DNA of 64,000 bases, taken from a virus. Its lineage: Duplodnaviria; Caudoviricetes. This document shows positions 33,501 through 53,269 of this stretch, in pieces; within the stretch, counting starts at the first letter, position 1; each line of letters begins with the position of its first letter. The position numbers and the translations under genes are program-made. Below the pieces are notes generated by a model that had not been told where the DNA came from, made no database searches, and saw only the letters and a list, made by a program, of their open reading frames with translations. The stretch is taken from the IMG/VR virus record IMGVR_UViG_3300028591_000086, positions 131,467 to 195,466 of that record; one strand, written 5' to 3'.

Positions 33501-35929
33501 TATCAAATCTACATCAAAACGTTTCTATCCAAATTATGCTAATAATAACTGGTCTGTTAATGAAGCTGCTATTAAATATGATATAGATTTGAAAAACCGT
33601 GTTCTTGCGGATATTAAAGAGAACCATAGGGATTATTTTGATAGATTAGTTAACGTATTTAAAGCCAATATTGATCTTATGCGTGAGCTTAGATTGGAAA
33701 TGGTTGTAACCGAAGGATGCGTTAACGATTATACTATTGTTTCTGATGGTAAAATCTATCCTGATTGCGAAACTAGTACCATGGGTTGTAGAACATATAA
33801 CGGTTACGATATCAATTATGAAGAAGTGTTCCGTAGAAACCTTGATTGTGTTGTGGGAGCAAACGGACTTGCAATTAATGATATTGAACCTTATTTTAGT
33901 GCTGCTCAGAAAGATGGTAGAGGTAATATCTGTCCTGAAACAATTATTCTTCCAACTCTTGCTATGGAAGCAAAGACTAATAATCCTCACATGATTGAAG
34001 AATTTAAAAATTTCAATGTTGATATTGATGTTGAAAAAGCTAGCTTAATTGATAAGTTTATGGCTTATCTTGATATTGAAATTGCTAGAACAAGAGATTC
34101 TTTAATTAACAGATATGAATATATTTGTTCCCGATCACCAGATGCAGCAACGTTCATGTGGGTAAATAAAACAATGGTAGGTTATATTCCTGAACAAGGA
34201 TTAGAATCTGCTATGAAACACGGTACGTTAGCAATAGGTCAACTTGGTTTATCTGAAACTCTTAAGATTCTTATAGGTGTAGATCATACTACCTCAAAAG
34301 GAATGGAATTAGCAAAGCGTATTGAAAATCTATTCAATAAACGCTGTAAAGAGTTTAAAGAAAAATATAAGTTGAATTTTGGGGTATACTATAGCCCTAA
34401 ACATAAATTAAGTGGGGCACATACAAGTAATTGTATGATTAAAAACTGTGTTAAACGGGCGTAGTGTAATAAACTGGTAAGAAAGGCTAAACCTATTAAT
34501 AAGGCAAGCTAACCCCGTAGGATGAATTAAAATTATAATTATGGTTATATATTATAGACGTAAGGAGTTATATAATATATGGCTAGACGAAAATTTACAA
34601 ATAAACTCATTGACAAAAATACTATTTCTGAGAAAATTAAATTGATCAAAGGCAGTACAACGGATTATATATCTGAATCTGGAAAGGTTTATAAAGATTA
34701 TGGTGATGGAAAAATGCTTCCTAAGCATATTAAACCTAATGTAAATAACGGATATGTTTATGTAGGTATTACTATAGGTAATAAAAATATCAGTAAACGT
34801 GTACATAGATTAGTTGCTGAAGCATTTATACCTAATGATGATCCTAAAAACAAAACTGTTGTAATGCATAAAGATAATAATAAAACTAATAACAATGTTG
34901 AAAATTTAAAATGGGGAACTATTTCAGAGAACACAAAACAGGCGTTTAATGACGGTTTAGCAGTGAATGATAAATCTTGGGATGATTCACAATCTATACC
35001 TGTTAAAACCATTGATAAAAATGGCAAAACTATTGACGCTTTTGGTTCAATGAGAGAAGCTTCTAGAATTACAGGTGAAAAACTTGCTATAATACGTTAT
35101 CATTGTAATGCTGAGGTAGATCCTAAAAAATTAAGAAAATGTAAATATTGTTTTAGATATATAACAGAAAAAGATCATATATGTCAATGTAAAAAGAAAT
35201 GATTTTAATTCGTTCTCTAACGACTATCGAAAGCATAGCTAAGAAGAAATATCTTAGTGAAGAAGCGAGTAGAGTAGAATCAAGTGATTCGAAATGCACA
35301 GCTCCCACGATTTGGTAAAAAGAATCGTGGGATGATGATATAGTCTAATCCCCTAATAAATATCGGGAAACCGAGGGTATAAAATACGAATAATGGCTGA
35401 AAGTTTATGTTTTACTGCTATGACAGCATTTAAAGATAAATATGGTGAAATTCTAGGCATAACAACTCATACTGATGGAAGTGAAAAACTTTATTTCACT
35501 AATAGTATGCATGTTCCTGTAGAAGTTAAGTTATCTGTATTTGATAAGATCGATATTGAATCGCAACTTACAGGATATTCTAATGCCGGTTGTATAACTT
35601 ATGTAAGATACGGTAATACTGCTAAGAACAATCCTCGTGCTATTGAACAAGCTGTAGTTCATGCTATGGAAAAAGATGTTCCATACTTTGCTGCAGATAT
35701 TGATTCTGATATGTGTATGGATTGTGGTTATATTGGATCTATTCCTGTAAATCATACTTGTCCTAAATGTGGTTCTGACCGAATTTCAAGAACAGAACGT
35801 GTAACTGGATATTTGAATCCTAACTGGATAACTTCTCCTGTGTCATCAGGTGGATTTAATTTAGGAAAACAAAATGAAAATCTTCATCGTGAAGATAACA
35901 CAGATCTTTTCTGTGCTTATGAGGAATAA
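30536..35929 (+). CDS. nrdD: Anaerobic ribonucleoside-triphosphate reductase, spliced from 4 exons (30536-31429, 31791-32107, 33306-34398, 35396-35929; 945 aa)
   Basis: ATP cone; splicing restores QQFG^GVAAT, SGNQL^PFSSINYG and YYSP^AESLC; MGCRT, CxxC..CxxC, glycyl-radical RVTGYL; exon total 2838 nt is in frame. Confidence 0.93.
31430..31790 (+). mobile_element. Group I intron 1 in nrdD (361 nt, no endonuclease)
   Basis: P1 TTCGGT/GCCGAA, terminal G, P7 GACTAT/ATAGTC. Confidence 0.9.
32108..33305 (+). mobile_element. Group I intron 2 in nrdD with LAGLIDADG HEG
   Basis: P1 CAGCT/GGCTG, terminal G at 33305, candidate P7 GCGTA/TACGC. Confidence 0.88.
32231..33067 (+). CDS. LAGLIDADG homing endonuclease (two motifs)
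   Basis: YFLGLIFTDG and FLRGIFDGDG; GGAG RBS. Confidence 0.9.
   Translation: MNFKLTEDLKDKVVEFYLSRPMSLDTASYKFRICKPKIVEILKSRNIEIYTKNQIFNPNFDERYFQNIDSEIKAYFLGLIFTDGNVFIKENECSKKITQVSLTLKDEDRYILEILRKELKTNRVITSDNRGSLTLSVRSNLMGEDLKKYNIVPNKSLTIHFPEIDENLKKYFNHFLRGIFDGDGSIQFRIGDKRVKYSVGLSAGNPIVLEQIRDILVDELKLFPVSVYEYSNKYTCMLTWQSAKDMFKICEYLYKDSTIYLERKRKIYDNFKQYYFTR
34399..35395 (+). mobile_element. Group I intron 3 in nrdD with HNH HEG
   Basis: P1 GCCCT/GGGGC, terminal G at 35395, P7 GACTAT/ATAGTC. Confidence 0.9.
34579..35202 (+). CDS. HNH homing endonuclease (I-HmuI-like architecture)
   Basis: VHRLVAEAF...HKDNNKTNNNVENLKW...EN; C-terminal FGSMREASR NUMOD1-like motif. Confidence 0.9.
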   Translation: MARRKFTNKLIDKNTISEKIKLIKGSTTDYISESGKVYKDYGDGKMLPKHIKPNVNNGYVYVGITIGNKNISKRVHRLVAEAFIPNDDPKNKTVVMHKDNNKTNNNVENLKWGTISENTKQAFNDGLAVNDKSWDDSQSIPVKTIDKNGKTIDAFGSMREASRITGEKLAIIRYHCNAEVDPKKLRKCKYCFRYITEKDHICQCKKK

Positions 35930-36429
35930 TGCTTATGAGATATGCTGCTATTTTAGGAAATGACTGTTTGAATGCAACAAACGGTTTTGCTGTAAGTCTT
36001 TGGACACAAGGTTGCCATTTTCATTGTAAAGGATGTCATAATAAGCATGTTTGGGATTTTAACGGTGGTAAAGAAGAACCGATAGAAGACGTTACTCATA
36101 AGATAAAAACTTTGCTTGTTGCTAATGACGTTCAACGTGATTTCAGTGTATTAGGTGGAGAACCATTGTGTAAAGAAAATTTACATGATGTTGCTACCAT
36201 TATAAAAGATATAAAAGAGGAATTTCCAGATATAACTATTCACATTTGGACAGGATACACTATTGAAGAATTACTTGTTAGAGAGCCTGATGAAAGCGAT
36301 TTAACAGATATATTTAGATACACTGATATCATTATTGATGGAAGATTTGATGAAACTAAAAAAGAATTAGATTTACCTTTTAGAGGTTCAACTAACCAAA
36401 GAATTTTAAGGAGGGGATATGATTTCTAA
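35929..36429 (+). CDS. nrdG: Anaerobic RNR activase (radical SAM)
   Basis: GCHFHCKGCHN, LGGEP, DGRF, RGSTNQR. Confidence 0.93.
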   Translation: MLMRYAAILGNDCLNATNGFAVSLWTQGCHFHCKGCHNKHVWDFNGGKEEPIEDVTHKIKTLLVANDVQRDFSVLGGEPLCKENLHDVATIIKDIKEEFPDITIHIWTGYTIEELLVREPDESDLTDIFRYTDIIIDGRFDETKKELDLPFRGSTNQRILRRGYDF

Positions 36430-36856
36430 AAAGGTATTATTAATTTATCTATTTAGTTTTATATTGTCAGTATCAATCTATTGTCAAAGTTATACAAACA
36501 GAGGCACGGATTTTTTATATACACCTGATCCTATTTTAAAATTAACTGGTGAAAAATCTTCAGTTATCAAGGAAAAAATTAAATATAAAAATGAGGATAT
36601 TGAAATATACGTAACGTGGTATTCTCAATATAATCAAGGTATATTCACTATAAACATCCCGGAAGATATAGATACGAAATATGAAGAAGGACTAGTTGAA
36701 AATATTTTTTATGAAGTTATAGAAACTTGGATAAAAGATATTAATCATCGATATTTTTCATATACTATCACTAAAAGGAGTGTGTTTTTTAGTAGAAAAA
36801 CATCTGATAATTGTGAGTGTGTTTCTACTGAAATAAAGGTGAATTTTTTAAAATAA
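36419..36856 (+). CDS. Exported hypothetical protein
   Basis: N-terminal signal-peptide-like sequence. Confidence 0.75.
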   Translation: MISKKVLLIYLFSFILSVSIYCQSYTNRGTDFLYTPDPILKLTGEKSSVIKEKIKYKNEDIEIYVTWYSQYNQGIFTINIPEDIDTKYEEGLVENIFYEVIETWIKDINHRYFSYTITKRSVFFSRKTSDNCECVSTEIKVNFLK

Positions 36857-36884
36857 ACAAAATATAGATTATATATTTTATTTC

Positions 36885-36989
36885 TGTCTAAGTAGAGTAA
36901 ACTAATTCGGATTCAACTGATTCTATATTCCCTCCCACCCATAGAATTTGTTTGAAGTGTCCTTTCTCCAGTTTTACTATACTTAGGCA
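36885..36989 (+). ncRNA. Hairpin sRNA candidate with C-rich anti-Shine-Dalgarno-like loops
   Basis: TGTCTAAGTA/TACTTAGGCA closing stem; loop ATTCCCTCCCACCC; bulge TCCTTTCTCC; promoter motif immediately upstream. Confidence 0.5.
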
Positions 36990-36995
36990 ATTTTT

Positions 36996-37106
36996 GATGT
37001 AGTAGTTTAAATAGTAAAACGAAAGACATTTTTAATTAATATAGTTTTCCATAACTCGTCCATGTTGAATGTGTCTTTTATACAGGTTCAAGTCCTGTCT
37101 ACATTA
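36996..37106 (+). ncRNA. tRNA-like RNA with extended anticodon stem and ~27-nt loop
   Basis: GATGTAG/CTACATT acceptor; GTTT/AAAC D-stem; ACAGG-TTCAAGT-CCTGT T-arm; AAAGACA/TGTCTTT stem extends to ~15 bp. Confidence 0.7.
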
Positions 37107-37150
37107 ATACAGAAAATGGTGTTTTCTGTAAATCAAATCCTTTAAGCATT

Positions 37151-37180
37151 GAGAACCACCGAAAGGTGGTTCTCTTTTTT
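37151..37180 (+). terminator. Intrinsic terminator closing the small-RNA locus
   Basis: GAGAACCACC-GAAA-GGTGGTTCTC-TTTTTT. Confidence 0.85.
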
Positions 37181-37266
37181 ATTTAAATTCGATTATAATC
37201 CTGTGAATAGGGTAGGGTGGTATTTTTTTATTTGTTTTTAAACTTAATAATACATAGGTAATTAAT

Positions 37267-38004
37267 ATGGAAAAATTTAAGAATTATAGAATAAGAAAAC
37301 CTAAACCTTCAGAAAAAGATATTGATGATGAGGAAAAAGGTGTTCCTGATAAAGATGGTTTAATTCATGTTGATGAAATACCTGATCCTCAATTTGATAT
37401 GAAATATTATGAGTACGATGAAAAGATTGTAAAAAAGATAGAAATGAAAGTTAGAAATTCATTTGAATACAAAGGATTATTTCAATTTATAAAGATTTAT
37501 CTTAATGTCGATCATTGTTCATACTATGAAGGATACTCTATGCAAAACGGATTGACAATTGAATTACATCATTCGCCGTTTACATTATATGATATAACTG
37601 AAGCTGTTCTTGCTAAGTCTATTCATGATAAAGGATATTATGAAACTTATAGAATAGTTGAAGAAGTAAATATGCTACACTATAGTTATAAAATAGGTTT
37701 AACTCCTTTGAATCCTACTTTACATAAGTTAGTTCATTCTGGCGTTGTTCCTATTCATCCAGCTATAGTATTAGGAAATTGGTGGGAATTTTATACTGAG
37801 TATCAAGCTTTTTTAAATCCTTCAGCTGTTAAGAAATATGAAGATTTCTTATCTCTAAAAGATAAGAAAAACCCTAGTATACCTCAGATTTTAAACTTCT
37901 CTCCTACTAAGATAGTTAGTCCTATTAAAATACCATCATTCAATGAAATACAAAAATTATTAGTAGATTCAAAGCTTAAGAAACTTGAAAATTTCATTGC
38001 ATAA
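37267..38004 (+). CDS. HNH-like His-rich phage protein (paralog of 46204..46947)
   Basis: IELHHSPFTLYDI...LHKLVH. Confidence 0.6.
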   Translation: MEKFKNYRIRKPKPSEKDIDDEEKGVPDKDGLIHVDEIPDPQFDMKYYEYDEKIVKKIEMKVRNSFEYKGLFQFIKIYLNVDHCSYYEGYSMQNGLTIELHHSPFTLYDITEAVLAKSIHDKGYYETYRIVEEVNMLHYSYKIGLTPLNPTLHKLVHSGVVPIHPAIVLGNWWEFYTEYQAFLNPSAVKKYEDFLSLKDKKNPSIPQILNFSPTKIVSPIKIPSFNEIQKLLVDSKLKKLENFIA

Positions 38005-53229: not shown

Positions 53230-53269
53230 TATTATTAGATTTATATTATATTATTAGAGAAAGGAGAAA
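53230..53269 (+). promoter_or_regulatory. Early-type promoter plus RBS cassette, copy 1
   Basis: 40 bp identical to 60902-60941. Confidence 0.75.

What the first reader, a model, noticed from the sequence alone, without database searches (positions are those of the whole stretch)
36885..36989. Hairpin RNA with two exposed anti-Shine-Dalgarno tracts, apparently co-transcribed with the tRNA scaffold
Seen: directly after a TTATATATT promoter motif, a long stem exposes ATTCCCTCCCACCC in a loop and TCCTTTCTCC in a bulge. TCCTTTCTC is complementary to GAGAAAGGA in the duplicated early cassette (53257-65, 60929-37); CCCTCCCA is complementary to the TGGGAGGG RBS of gene 27975. C-runs are very rare in this genome. 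The unit ends at terminator 37151-37180. Known analogy: C-rich-loop sRNAs such as S. aureus RNAIII/Rsa. Inference: an RBS-occluding sRNA operon for the early-to-late switch or for host shut-off.
Basis: partly seen in the sequence, partly recalled or inferred. Interest (0 to 1): 0.75.

Follow-up and report, generated by a model that had tools for sequence, protein, structure and literature searches.

The report
Early jumbo-phage small RNA, C-rich loop
A rumen giant phage carries a small non-coding RNA gene whose long hairpin shows an almost unchanging C-rich loop (CCCUCCCACCC); related giant phages keep the same loop on quite different stems, and it looks like the "UCCC" RNAs that low-GC bacteria use to cover ribosome-binding sites.

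Summary
Window 36885-36989 (+) folds into a 105-nt hairpin (-27.1 kcal/mol, z -4.9). Its 14-nt apical loop, AUUCCCUCCCACCC, is the most C-rich tract of the 195-kb genome. I found the same loop core (CCCUCCC, mostly UUCCC(C)UCCCACCC) on top of hairpins in about 12 further distinct sequences from related rumen/gut jumbo-phage contigs. The stems are about 30% identical, which is random level, yet all fold (z -2.9 to -8.5). G·U pairs and energies favour the C-rich strand. No reading frame is conserved on either strand.

In 13 of 14 members, TATATT-NN-N6-G/A places +1 within 4 nt of the first structured element. This matches the published early (virion-RNA-polymerase) promoter of phage AR9, and this phage encodes AR9/phiKZ-type RNA polymerase pieces.

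The predicted 299-nt transcript is hairpin, tRNA look-alike, small hairpin, single-stranded AAUCCUUUAA, then terminator.

Most likely it is an early phage sRNA of the UCCC/C-rich-box type that pairs with G-rich Shine-Dalgarno regions. The targets are therefore probably host-encoded or generic. Expression could not be shown. It is a new family (no Rfam match) of a known kind.

The parts
36870..36879 (+). Early-promoter-like element TATATATTTT. After 6 nt it predicts +1 at G36886.
   Evidence: Fits the AR9 early consensus AAATATATATTAT-(6N)-G+1 (PMC5312081). The same spacing to the first structured base holds in 13 of 14 family members. The motif is enriched in intergenic DNA and oriented towards genes.
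36885..36989 (+). Long imperfect hairpin, the body of the finding.
   Evidence: MFE -27.1 kcal/mol, z -4.89. It keeps the same fold inside the 299-nt transcript.
36927..36940 (+). Apical loop AUUCCCUCCCACCC, made of three (U/A)CCC units.
   Evidence: Unpaired in the MFE and centroid structures. It is the most C-rich tract of the genome. The CCCUCCC core is invariant in 10 of the 12 family hairpins tabulated; L004 and L157 carry 1-2 extra pyrimidines between the C triplets.
36960..36969 (+). UCCUUUCUCC tract. Its 3' seven bases lie in an internal loop.
   Evidence: structure. It is complementary to GAGAAAGGA at 53257 and 60929. It is not positionally conserved in other lineages.
36996..37106 (+). 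tRNA look-alike with a 46-nt insert in place of the anticodon loop. Probable processing module.
   Evidence: Rfam RF00005, 44.7 bits. Missed by ARAGORN. Cloverleaf in the transcript fold.
37108..37130 (+). Small hairpin UACAGAAAAUGGUGUUUUCUGUA.
   Evidence: fold.
37136..37146 (+). Single-stranded AAUCCUUUAAG just 5' of the terminator: a second, better conserved anti-SD-like site.
   Evidence: Unpaired. Counterparts are AAUCUCCUUUAA (L100, L122), AAUCUCCUUG (L147) and CACCUUCUUUU (L126 group).
37151..37184 (+). Rho-independent terminator (10-bp stem, 6 G-C pairs, U-run).

Best explanation
The hairpin is the 5' module of a roughly 299-nt non-coding transcript (G36886 to about 37184) of an AR9-like rumen jumbo phage. 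The phage's injected virion RNA polymerase probably makes it from an early promoter.

The hairpin's job is to display an invariant pyrimidine loop made of three (U)CCC units. A second CU-rich single-stranded site lies near the terminator. Like the UCCC/C-rich-box sRNAs of low-GC Gram-positive bacteria (RNAIII, RsaE/RoxS, LhrC), the RNA most likely pairs in trans with G-rich Shine-Dalgarno regions (GGGAGG-like) and blocks 30S binding. Host messages are the more probable targets.

The tRNA look-alike between the two modules probably serves as an RNase P / RNase Z cutting signal. Cutting would release the 110-nt hairpin RNA and a 78-nt hairpin-seed-terminator RNA.

Shown: the structure, conservation, strand, non-coding nature, promoter and terminator signals, and the SD-like complementarity.

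Inferred: transcription, its timing, the processing, the trans action and the identity of the targets.
For: - Fold: (z -4.9 for the hairpin, -6.5 for the transcript).
- Family: the hairpin carries the same loop in L004/L144, L145, L146/L147, L150, L126/L152/L154/L157, L158, L127 and L100/L122/L123. Of the 11 folded, 10 have z -2.9 to -8.5; L150 does not (z 0.20, weak AU-rich stem).
- Stems versus loop: the stem bases are 30% identical between lineages while the loop core is fixed. Shuffling the 3' partners gives only 50% pairing.
- Strand: the C-loop strand folds better in 12 of 13 members and carries the G·U pairs. 14 of 66 cells are G·U in subfamily alignment A3, and all 8 varying pairs stay paired.
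- Modularity: L145 splits the motif over two loops, and L004 and L157 tolerate 1-2 extra pyrimidines between the CCC units. This is expected for redundant short seeds.
- Second site: the density of CU-rich anti-SD-like words in the RNAs is about 8-fold background.
- Promoter: TATATT-NN-N6-G at the first structured base in 13 of 14 members, which matches the AR9 early consensus (PMC5312081). The phage encodes multisubunit RNA polymerase homologues and an AR9 g261 homologue.
- The phage uses SD-led starts: GGAG in 93 of 162 start regions. The loop recognises start regions as well as the 16S anti-SD does.
- Literature for the mechanism class: PMC2790875 and PMC4132741.
Against: - There is no expression evidence. 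Metatranscriptome contigs cover the flanking genes but not the RNA.
- No conserved phage target exists. The host is unknown, so no host target could be sought.
- In-genome pairing energies do not exceed the coding-region controls.
- A 15-nt loop kept almost unchanged across phages whose neighbouring protein is only 35-60% identical could equally be a protein-binding site.
- The RNA was not found in the syntenic flank of L148 and L149, nor in the cultured relatives AR9 and LPJP1.
Confidence: 0.45

Rival explanations
1. Protein-binding or decoy RNA. The fixed C-rich loop is a recognition site for a conserved phage or host RNA-binding protein, for example a KH-type poly(C) binder, Rho, or a phage translational regulator. 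The RNA would titrate, recruit or scaffold that protein rather than pair with mRNAs.
For: The 15-nt loop is nearly invariant over lineages whose neighbouring protein has diverged to 35-60% identity. No complementary phage target exists. The hairpin presentation is conserved while the stem sequence is free.
Against: Insertions between the CCC units (L004, L157) and the split of the motif over two loops (L145) fit modular short seeds better than one fixed protein site. The extra CU-rich single-stranded sites and the resemblance to UCCC sRNAs point the same way. No candidate protein co-varies in position: the L100 group has the RNA next to nrdG, about 70 kb from the 245-aa gene.
Confidence: 0.2
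2. A purely cis-acting structural module. It would be a 5' stabiliser, processing platform or terminator hairpin for the tRNA-like transcript, or a leader for downstream genes, with no trans target. The C-rich loop would be a nuclease or polymerase signal.
For: The hairpin sits exactly at +1 in most members; 5' hairpins stabilise RNAs in Bacillota (stated in PMC2790875). In L004 and L147 the C-loop hairpin is itself the terminator. In the window it is followed by AUUUUU.
Against: A stabiliser or terminator does not need an invariant 11-15-nt loop. The hairpin's position in the transcript varies (5' end, or 60 nt in, or terminator), while the loop does not. The start regions of downstream genes are not G-rich, so cis SD masking does not apply. 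The scan does not call the window hairpin a terminator.
Confidence: 0.15
3. A mimic of the 16S rRNA 3' end. A hairpin plus a CACCUUCUUUU / AAUCUCCUUU tail would imitate helix 45 plus the anti-SD tail. It would soak up SD sequences globally, or decoy a factor or toxin that acts on the 16S 3' end, giving RNA-based host translation take-over.
For: The 3' tails GCACCUUCUUUUUU (L126 group) and UCACCUUCUUUU / AAUCUCCUUUAA (L100 group) resemble the textbook 16S 3' end CACCUCCUUUCU (my own knowledge). The promoter is of the early class. The loop pairs with start regions as generally as the real anti-SD does.
Against: The phage's own genes use the same GGAG sites, so global titration would hurt the phage too. 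It would require very high stoichiometry. The resemblance is short and was judged by eye. There is no data on abundance.
Confidence: 0.08
4. The C-rich tracts are coding or RBS sequence of minus-strand (or plus-strand) micro-ORFs.
For: The complement reads ATG-GGT-GGG-AGG in several members. L100 has AAAGGAGA-N9-ATG heading a 39-codon minus-strand frame. The window has a 38-codon minus-strand ORF at 36913-37029.
Against: Frames are not kept. L122/L124 stop after 7 codons because of a 1-nt indel, and L123 uses another frame. L126, L157 and L158 have no start codon, and L147 reads the motif in a different frame. Loop indels of 1-2 nt occur between members. The window ORF lacks an SD and runs into the tRNA look-alike. 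G·U pairs mark the plus strand as the folded one.
Confidence: 0.02

Closest known systems
UCCC / C-rich-box sRNAs of low-GC Gram-positive bacteria: S. aureus RNAIII and RsaE (B. subtilis RoxS), L. monocytogenes LhrC (PMC2790875, PMC4132741, PMC5419742)
   Same: Both have unpaired UCCC-type motifs in the most conserved parts, shown in hairpin loops, in a single-stranded stretch and sometimes in the terminator loop. Both carry several redundant CU-rich sites per RNA. Both have a 5' hairpin plus rho-independent terminator layout, and both are complementary to Shine-Dalgarno sequences.
   Different: This RNA is phage-encoded (uncultured jumbo phages), not chromosomal. It has no Rfam match to any of these families. 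Three CCC units are packed into one 14-20-nt loop. It is driven by a phage early promoter. It is often joined to tRNA look-alikes. Target binding is untested.
Phage- and prophage-encoded regulatory sRNAs in general (my own knowledge: DicF, IpeX, S. aureus SprD; jumbo-phage transcript maps such as PMC11512511 were listed but not read)
   Same: A small non-coding RNA made by a phage, with its own promoter and terminator, and presumably acting on gene expression.
   Different: There is no sequence or structure relation. This family is conserved across many AR9-like rumen/gut jumbo-phage lineages and has a Gram-positive-style C-rich seed.
tRNA-linked small RNAs: murine gammaherpesvirus 68 tRNA-miRNA units cut by tRNase Z, the E. 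coli 3'ETS-leuZ sponge, T4 stable RNAs C and D in the tRNA cluster
   Same: A hairpin RNA lies directly beside a tRNA-shaped element in one transcript, so tRNA-processing enzymes could define its ends.
   Different: The order varies between phages: hairpin first in the window and L158, tRNA-like first in L004. The L100 and L126 groups have no adjoining tRNA-like piece. Processing is not shown.
AR9 early (virion RNA polymerase) transcription units (PMC5312081)
   Same: The promoter TATAT(A)TTAT-(6N)-G+1 lies directly upstream, and the phage encodes multisubunit RNA polymerase homologues.
   Different: AR9 itself has no such C-loop hairpin. The start site here is predicted, not mapped.

Membership tests
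UCCC / C-rich-box SD-blocking sRNAs (RNAIII, RsaE/RoxS, LhrC class) | Unpaired UCCC/C-rich motif in the most conserved region of the RNA | tested here: met
   The loop AUUCCCUCCCACCC is unpaired. The CCCUCCC core is conserved across the 12 hairpins tabulated (L004 and L157 have 1-2 extra pyrimidines between the triplets), while the stems are 30% identical.
UCCC / C-rich-box SD-blocking sRNAs (RNAIII, RsaE/RoxS, LhrC class) | Small stand-alone transcript with a 5' hairpin and a rho-independent terminator | tested here: met
   Promoter-like element, +1 at the hairpin base and a terminator. This rests on sequence signals only.
UCCC / C-rich-box SD-blocking sRNAs (RNAIII, RsaE/RoxS, LhrC class) | Homology to a described family (Rfam RsaE, LhrC, RNAIII and others) | tested here: not met
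   cmscan of the window at gathering thresholds, and of 36700-37400 at E<=10, gives no sRNA family on the hairpin. It is therefore not a member of those families and is at most a functional analogue.
UCCC / C-rich-box SD-blocking sRNAs (RNAIII, RsaE/RoxS, LhrC class) | Pairs with the SD region of defined mRNAs and blocks initiation | tested here: inconclusive
   The loop pairs with phage start regions about as well as the 16S anti-SD does (15% versus 4% of controls at <=-10 kcal/mol), but the controls reach lower minima. The candidate target 8-mer is not conserved in relatives.
AR9-type early (virion RNAP) promoter | Consensus AAATATATATTAT-(6N)-G+1 | tested here: met
   The window has TATATATTTT-ATTTCT-G. 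The L100, L122, L123, L126, L152, L154 and L157 members have an exact TATATTAT-N6-G. 13 of 14 members fit. The consensus comes from PMC5312081.
AR9-type early (virion RNAP) promoter | The phage encodes phiKZ/AR9-type multisubunit RNA polymerases | tested here: met
   A 785-aa ORF with RNA_pol_Rpb2_6 (40.9 bits) and a beta'-like piece (21.5 bits, below cut-off). An AR9 g261 homologue lies next door.
AR9-type early (virion RNAP) promoter | Mapped 5' end, early and chloramphenicol-independent transcription | not testable with these tools
   Only contigs of RNA runs were available, and none covers the RNA.
Intrinsic terminator (as an alternative identity of the hairpin itself) | Short G+C-rich stem with a 3-8-nt loop and a U-run | tested here: not met
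   The scan calls only 37151-37174. The window hairpin is 105 nt, AU-rich, and has a 14-nt loop. In L004 and L147 the C-loop hairpin does carry a U-run.
Protein-coding micro-ORF | Start codon, RBS and reading frame conserved among relatives | tested here: not met
   Frames, starts and lengths differ on both strands, and 1-2-nt indels occur in the loop.

The most novel reading that the evidence does not exclude
AR9-like jumbo phages of gut Bacillota carry a dedicated early RNA weapon. A highly expressed transcript made by the virion polymerase is cut out by tRNA-processing enzymes at built-in tRNA look-alikes. Its triple-CCC loop and 16S-tail-like CU tract then act as a surrogate anti-Shine-Dalgarno that captures host ribosome-binding sites, or a factor acting on the 16S 3' end. 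That would be RNA-only host translation take-over, with a tRNA-punctuated maturation so far known from a herpesvirus.
Probability: 0.12. Interest if true: 0.8.

Novelty: new member of a known kind. Interest (0 to 1): 0.52.

Why it matters
Regulatory RNAs of jumbo phages are almost unexplored, and the phages here are uncultured rumen and gut viruses. A conserved, early-promoter-driven RNA with a Gram-positive-style C-rich seed would be a defined, testable candidate for how these phages interfere with host translation. The family also gives a clean sequence signature (early promoter, hairpin, CCCUCCC loop) for annotating such phages. Its varying linkage to tRNA look-alikes offers a natural test of whether tRNA-shaped modules serve as processing punctuation for phage small RNAs.

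Tried and rejected
- Rfam: no family on the hairpin at gathering thresholds or at E<=10. Relatives gave nothing either.
- GenBank phage DNA searches with the window unit and the L100 unit gave only chance AT-rich hits.
- AR9 and Listeria phage LPJP1 contain CCCTCCC only in non-hairpin contexts.
- Expression: one RNA metatranscriptome holds contigs identical to both flanking genes but none over the RNA. No conclusion can be drawn, because contigs drop small RNAs and DNA carry-over is possible.
The closest relatives (84% neighbour protein, Logan/ENA only) could therefore not be fetched, and the window-specific bulge tract could not be tested for conservation.
- The first loose loop pattern in viral contigs gave 117 hits, mostly chance; only L100 was real, and L117 is unrelated.
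- Phage-internal targets: no site matching at least 10 of 12 bases in G000, G001 or G002.
- Pairing of the loop with the G-rich tract at 37207-37222: 9 of 11 bases with two mismatches, and not conserved (L004 has none; relatives have a shorter tract).
- Cis masking of the downstream gene's RBS: those RBSs are not G-rich.
- Y RNA, put/nut-type antiterminator, CRISPR-repeat mimic and type I/III antitoxin identities were considered. They were dropped for lack of any defining feature (no nested stem around the tRNA-like part, no repeats, no toxin ORF).
- The cross-family MAFFT alignment (A2) and the CM alignment (A4) did not align the stems well enough for formal covariation counts. I used an apex-anchored table instead. 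That table is partly circular, because the pairs come from each sequence's own MFE fold.
- Subfamily alignment A3 has only 3 sequences and no statistical power.

Full report
**What is there.** The window is the last 64 kb of a 195,466-bp IMG/VR phage contig (29% G+C, about 70% complete). The gap between a 145-aa ORF (ending at 36856) and a 245-aa ORF (starting at 37267) is 410 bp without a credible gene.

Bases 36885-36989 fold on the plus strand into a long imperfect hairpin (-27.1 kcal/mol, z -4.89, 0 of 200 shuffles as good). The complement folds less well (-25.2, z -2.66). The 14-nt apical loop (36927-36940) reads AUUCCCUCCCACCC. It is the most C-rich stretch of the whole genome, and CCCTCCC occurs nowhere else on that strand.

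Six bases after the hairpin comes an Rfam-positive tRNA look-alike (36996-37106, 44.7 bits) with a 46-nt insert at the anticodon loop. ARAGORN does not call it. The only canonical terminator is at 37151-37174 plus its U-run.

**It is a conserved RNA, not a chance hairpin.** I used the neighbouring 245-aa protein (43 clusters of relatives; alignment A1) and loop patterns to fetch related loci from viral and metagenome contigs. These are jumbo-phage contigs of 100-330 kb, and the runs that hold the window DNA are sheep and cattle gut samples.

A hairpin topped by the same C-rich loop occurs in L004/L144, L145, L146/L147, L150, L126/L152/L154/L157, L158, L127 and L100/L122/L123. The loops are:
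- AUUCCC(C)UCCCACCCA in the window and in L100, L122, L123, L146 and L147
- AAUUCCCCUCCCACCCG in L158
- CAACCCCUCCCACCCA in L127
- UUUUCCCUCUCCCACCCG in L157
- GUUUCCCUUCCCACCAC in L004
- UUUCCCCUCCCGUAG in the L126 group
- ACCCUCCCGAAG in L150

L145 has the motif split over two neighbouring loops.

Of the 11 members folded, 10 fold far better than shuffles (z -2.9 to -8.5). L150 did not (z 0.20); its stem is AU-rich and weak. The eight pairs next to the loop are only 30% identical between ten independent lineages. Each pair position shows 3-6 different canonical pair types, and swapping 3' partners between lineages halves the pairing. Part of that test is circular, because the pairs come from each sequence's own fold.

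Within the closely related L100/L122/L123 trio, all 8 varying pairs of 22 stay paired: 7 by G-C/A-U to G·U changes and 1 by a double change. Three sequences carry no statistical weight.

**Strand and coding.** The C-loop strand is the more stable one in 12 of 13 members, often by 8-15 kcal/mol, and it holds most of the G·U pairs. 14 of 66 cells in A3 are G·U, which would be A·C mismatches on the other strand.

No frame is conserved. The minus-strand ATG-GGT-GGG-AGG reading stops after 7-16 codons at different places. L100 has a tidy SD-N9-ATG 39-codon frame further upstream on the minus strand, but that frame is broken by a 1-nt indel in L122/L124 and replaced in L123. L126, L157 and L158 have no start codon, and the loop itself varies by 1-2 nt. 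The window's 38-codon minus-strand ORF lacks an SD and overlaps the tRNA look-alike. The "micro-ORF" refutation therefore does not apply.

**Transcription signals.** The 245-aa neighbour is a homologue of AR9 g261 and of genes in PBS1, the Staphylococcus S6-type jumbo phages, Listeria LPJP1 and Yersinia phiR1-37. The genome also encodes RNA polymerase beta- and beta'-like pieces. It is thus an AR9/phiKZ-style jumbo phage.

AR9 early promoters, read by the injected virion polymerase, have the consensus AAATATATATTAT-(6N)-G+1 (PMC5312081). The window has TATATATTTT-ATTTCT-G, which puts +1 at G36886, the second base of the hairpin. In 13 of 14 family members, TATATT-NN-N6-(G, once A) puts +1 within 4 nt of the first structured element, and within 2 nt in 12 of them. 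Seven members have an exact TATATTAT.

In this genome the 9-mer TTATATATT is intergenic in 22 of 43 cases, against about 10% intergenic DNA, and those copies mostly face a nearby downstream gene or RNA element.

**The whole unit.** G36886 to U37184 (299 nt) folds (z -6.46) into five parts: the C-loop hairpin, the cloverleaf-like element, a small hairpin (37108-37130), about 20 unpaired bases containing AAUCCUUUAAG (37136-37146), and the terminator.

The L100 group has the same plan without the tRNA-like part: C-loop hairpin, UCACCUUCUUUU, small hairpin, AAUCUCCUUUAA, terminator. The L126 group ends in GCACCUUCUUUUUU. In L004 and L147 the C-loop hairpin is itself the terminator, and it is preceded by AAUCUCCUU or contains UCUCCUUU.

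CU-rich anti-SD-like words are about 8-fold denser in these RNAs than in the surrounding loci and 5-fold denser than on their antisense strand. 7 of 8 lineages have at least one outside the loop.

tRNA-like pieces, each with an acceptor-type stem plus a GGUUCRAnUCC arm, adjoin the hairpin in the window and L158 (3' side), in L004 (5' side) and in L127 (after the terminator). Only the window copy reaches Rfam's threshold.

**Mechanism.** The loop is three (U/A)CCC units, and the second site is CU-rich. This is the signature of the SD-blocking sRNAs of low-GC Gram-positive bacteria, in which unpaired UCCC motifs in loops, linkers and terminator loops bind SD regions redundantly (RNAIII, RsaE: PMC2790875; LhrC: PMC4132741).

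The phage relies on SD-led initiation (GGAG in 93 of 162 start regions). Its loop pairs with start regions about as selectively as the true 16S anti-SD does: 15% versus 4% of coding-region controls at <=-10 kcal/mol.

Two observations favour modular short seeds over one long fixed partner: extra pyrimidines between the CCC units are tolerated, and L145 splits the motif over two loops.

I therefore rank a trans-acting, SD-occluding early sRNA first (0.45). The tRNA look-alike would act as a processing signal.

**What does not hold.** They are not special, however:
- The best in-genome partner of the loop is actually the gene just upstream (36419, -18.9 kcal/mol).
- Random coding windows reach -21 kcal/mol.
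- A 99%-complete 276-kb relative has no TGGGAGGG apart from the hairpin's own complement.
- No site matching at least 10 of 12 bases exists in three phage records.

A conserved target, if there is one, is therefore host-encoded, and the host is unknown. Expression is unproven, since the RNA-run contigs miss the region. A protein-binding or decoy role (0.20), a purely cis structural role (0.15) and a 16S-tail mimic (0.08) remain open.

**Comparison and novelty.** No Rfam family matches. GenBank phages, including AR9 and LPJP1, lack the RNA. It works like a UCCC-box sRNA but is not a member of RsaE, LhrC or RNAIII. I file it as a new family of a known kind. It has two unusual traits: a phage early promoter, and a variable linkage to tRNA look-alikes.

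Noticed in passing
window 34579-35390: An HNH endonuclease ORF (34579-35202) and a 55-60-nt element (about 35324-35390) lie between the two halves of nrdD. The element is 92-96% identical to spots in more than 200 genomes of Staphylococcus, Listeria, Enterococcus, Bacillus and Brochothrix phages. It looks like a mobile group I intron with a widely shared core.
   Followed up: partly
L126 865-2500 (also L152, L154, L157): About 1.5 kb without an evident gene, G+C-richer than its surroundings, lies between the C-loop sRNA terminator and the 245-aa gene. It probably holds one or more large structured RNAs.
   Followed up: no
L158 1857-2300; L127 2106-2214; L004 2833-2893: Further elements with an acceptor-like stem and a GGUUCRAnUCC arm but no normal anticodon arm lie next to the C-loop hairpin. 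None reaches Rfam tRNA at E<=1 in L158.
   Followed up: partly
L155 / L156 (about 303-370 of L156): The C-loop sRNA gene is cut off just after the loop and joined to unrelated coding DNA. This looks like a recombination scar in one lineage.
   Followed up: no
L145 2369-2460: The conserved motif is divided between two adjacent hairpin loops (UUUCCCCUCCCGAAG and AUCCCACCCAA) inside one outer stem (z -6.1).
   Followed up: partly
window 37207-37222: The G-rich tract GGGTAGGGTGG lies after the terminator and is partly complementary to the loop (9 of 11 bases). Relatives seen in DNA runs carry only GAGTAGGGTGG, so the window has a local TAGGG duplication.
   Followed up: partly
window 37267-38004: The 245-aa neighbour belongs to phrog_12252 (unknown function) and is a homologue of AR9 g261. 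It has many invariant His, Cys and Pro positions (HH at 101-102, H138, H153, H157, H164). It is widespread in AR9-like jumbo phages.
   Followed up: partly
window 13164-13184: The same early-promoter-like motif (TATATATTAT-GCCTAT-G) sits 3 nt before tRNA-Asp at 13184. The tRNA island therefore appears to be driven by the same promoter class as the C-loop RNA.
   Followed up: no
window 36403-36423: The start region of the upstream 145-aa gene (AAGGAGGGGAUAUG) is the best predicted partner of the loop plus its 5' stem bases in the whole genome (-18.9 kcal/mol, 12 bp with two G·U). That gene is absent from L004, so the pairing is not conserved.
   Followed up: partly
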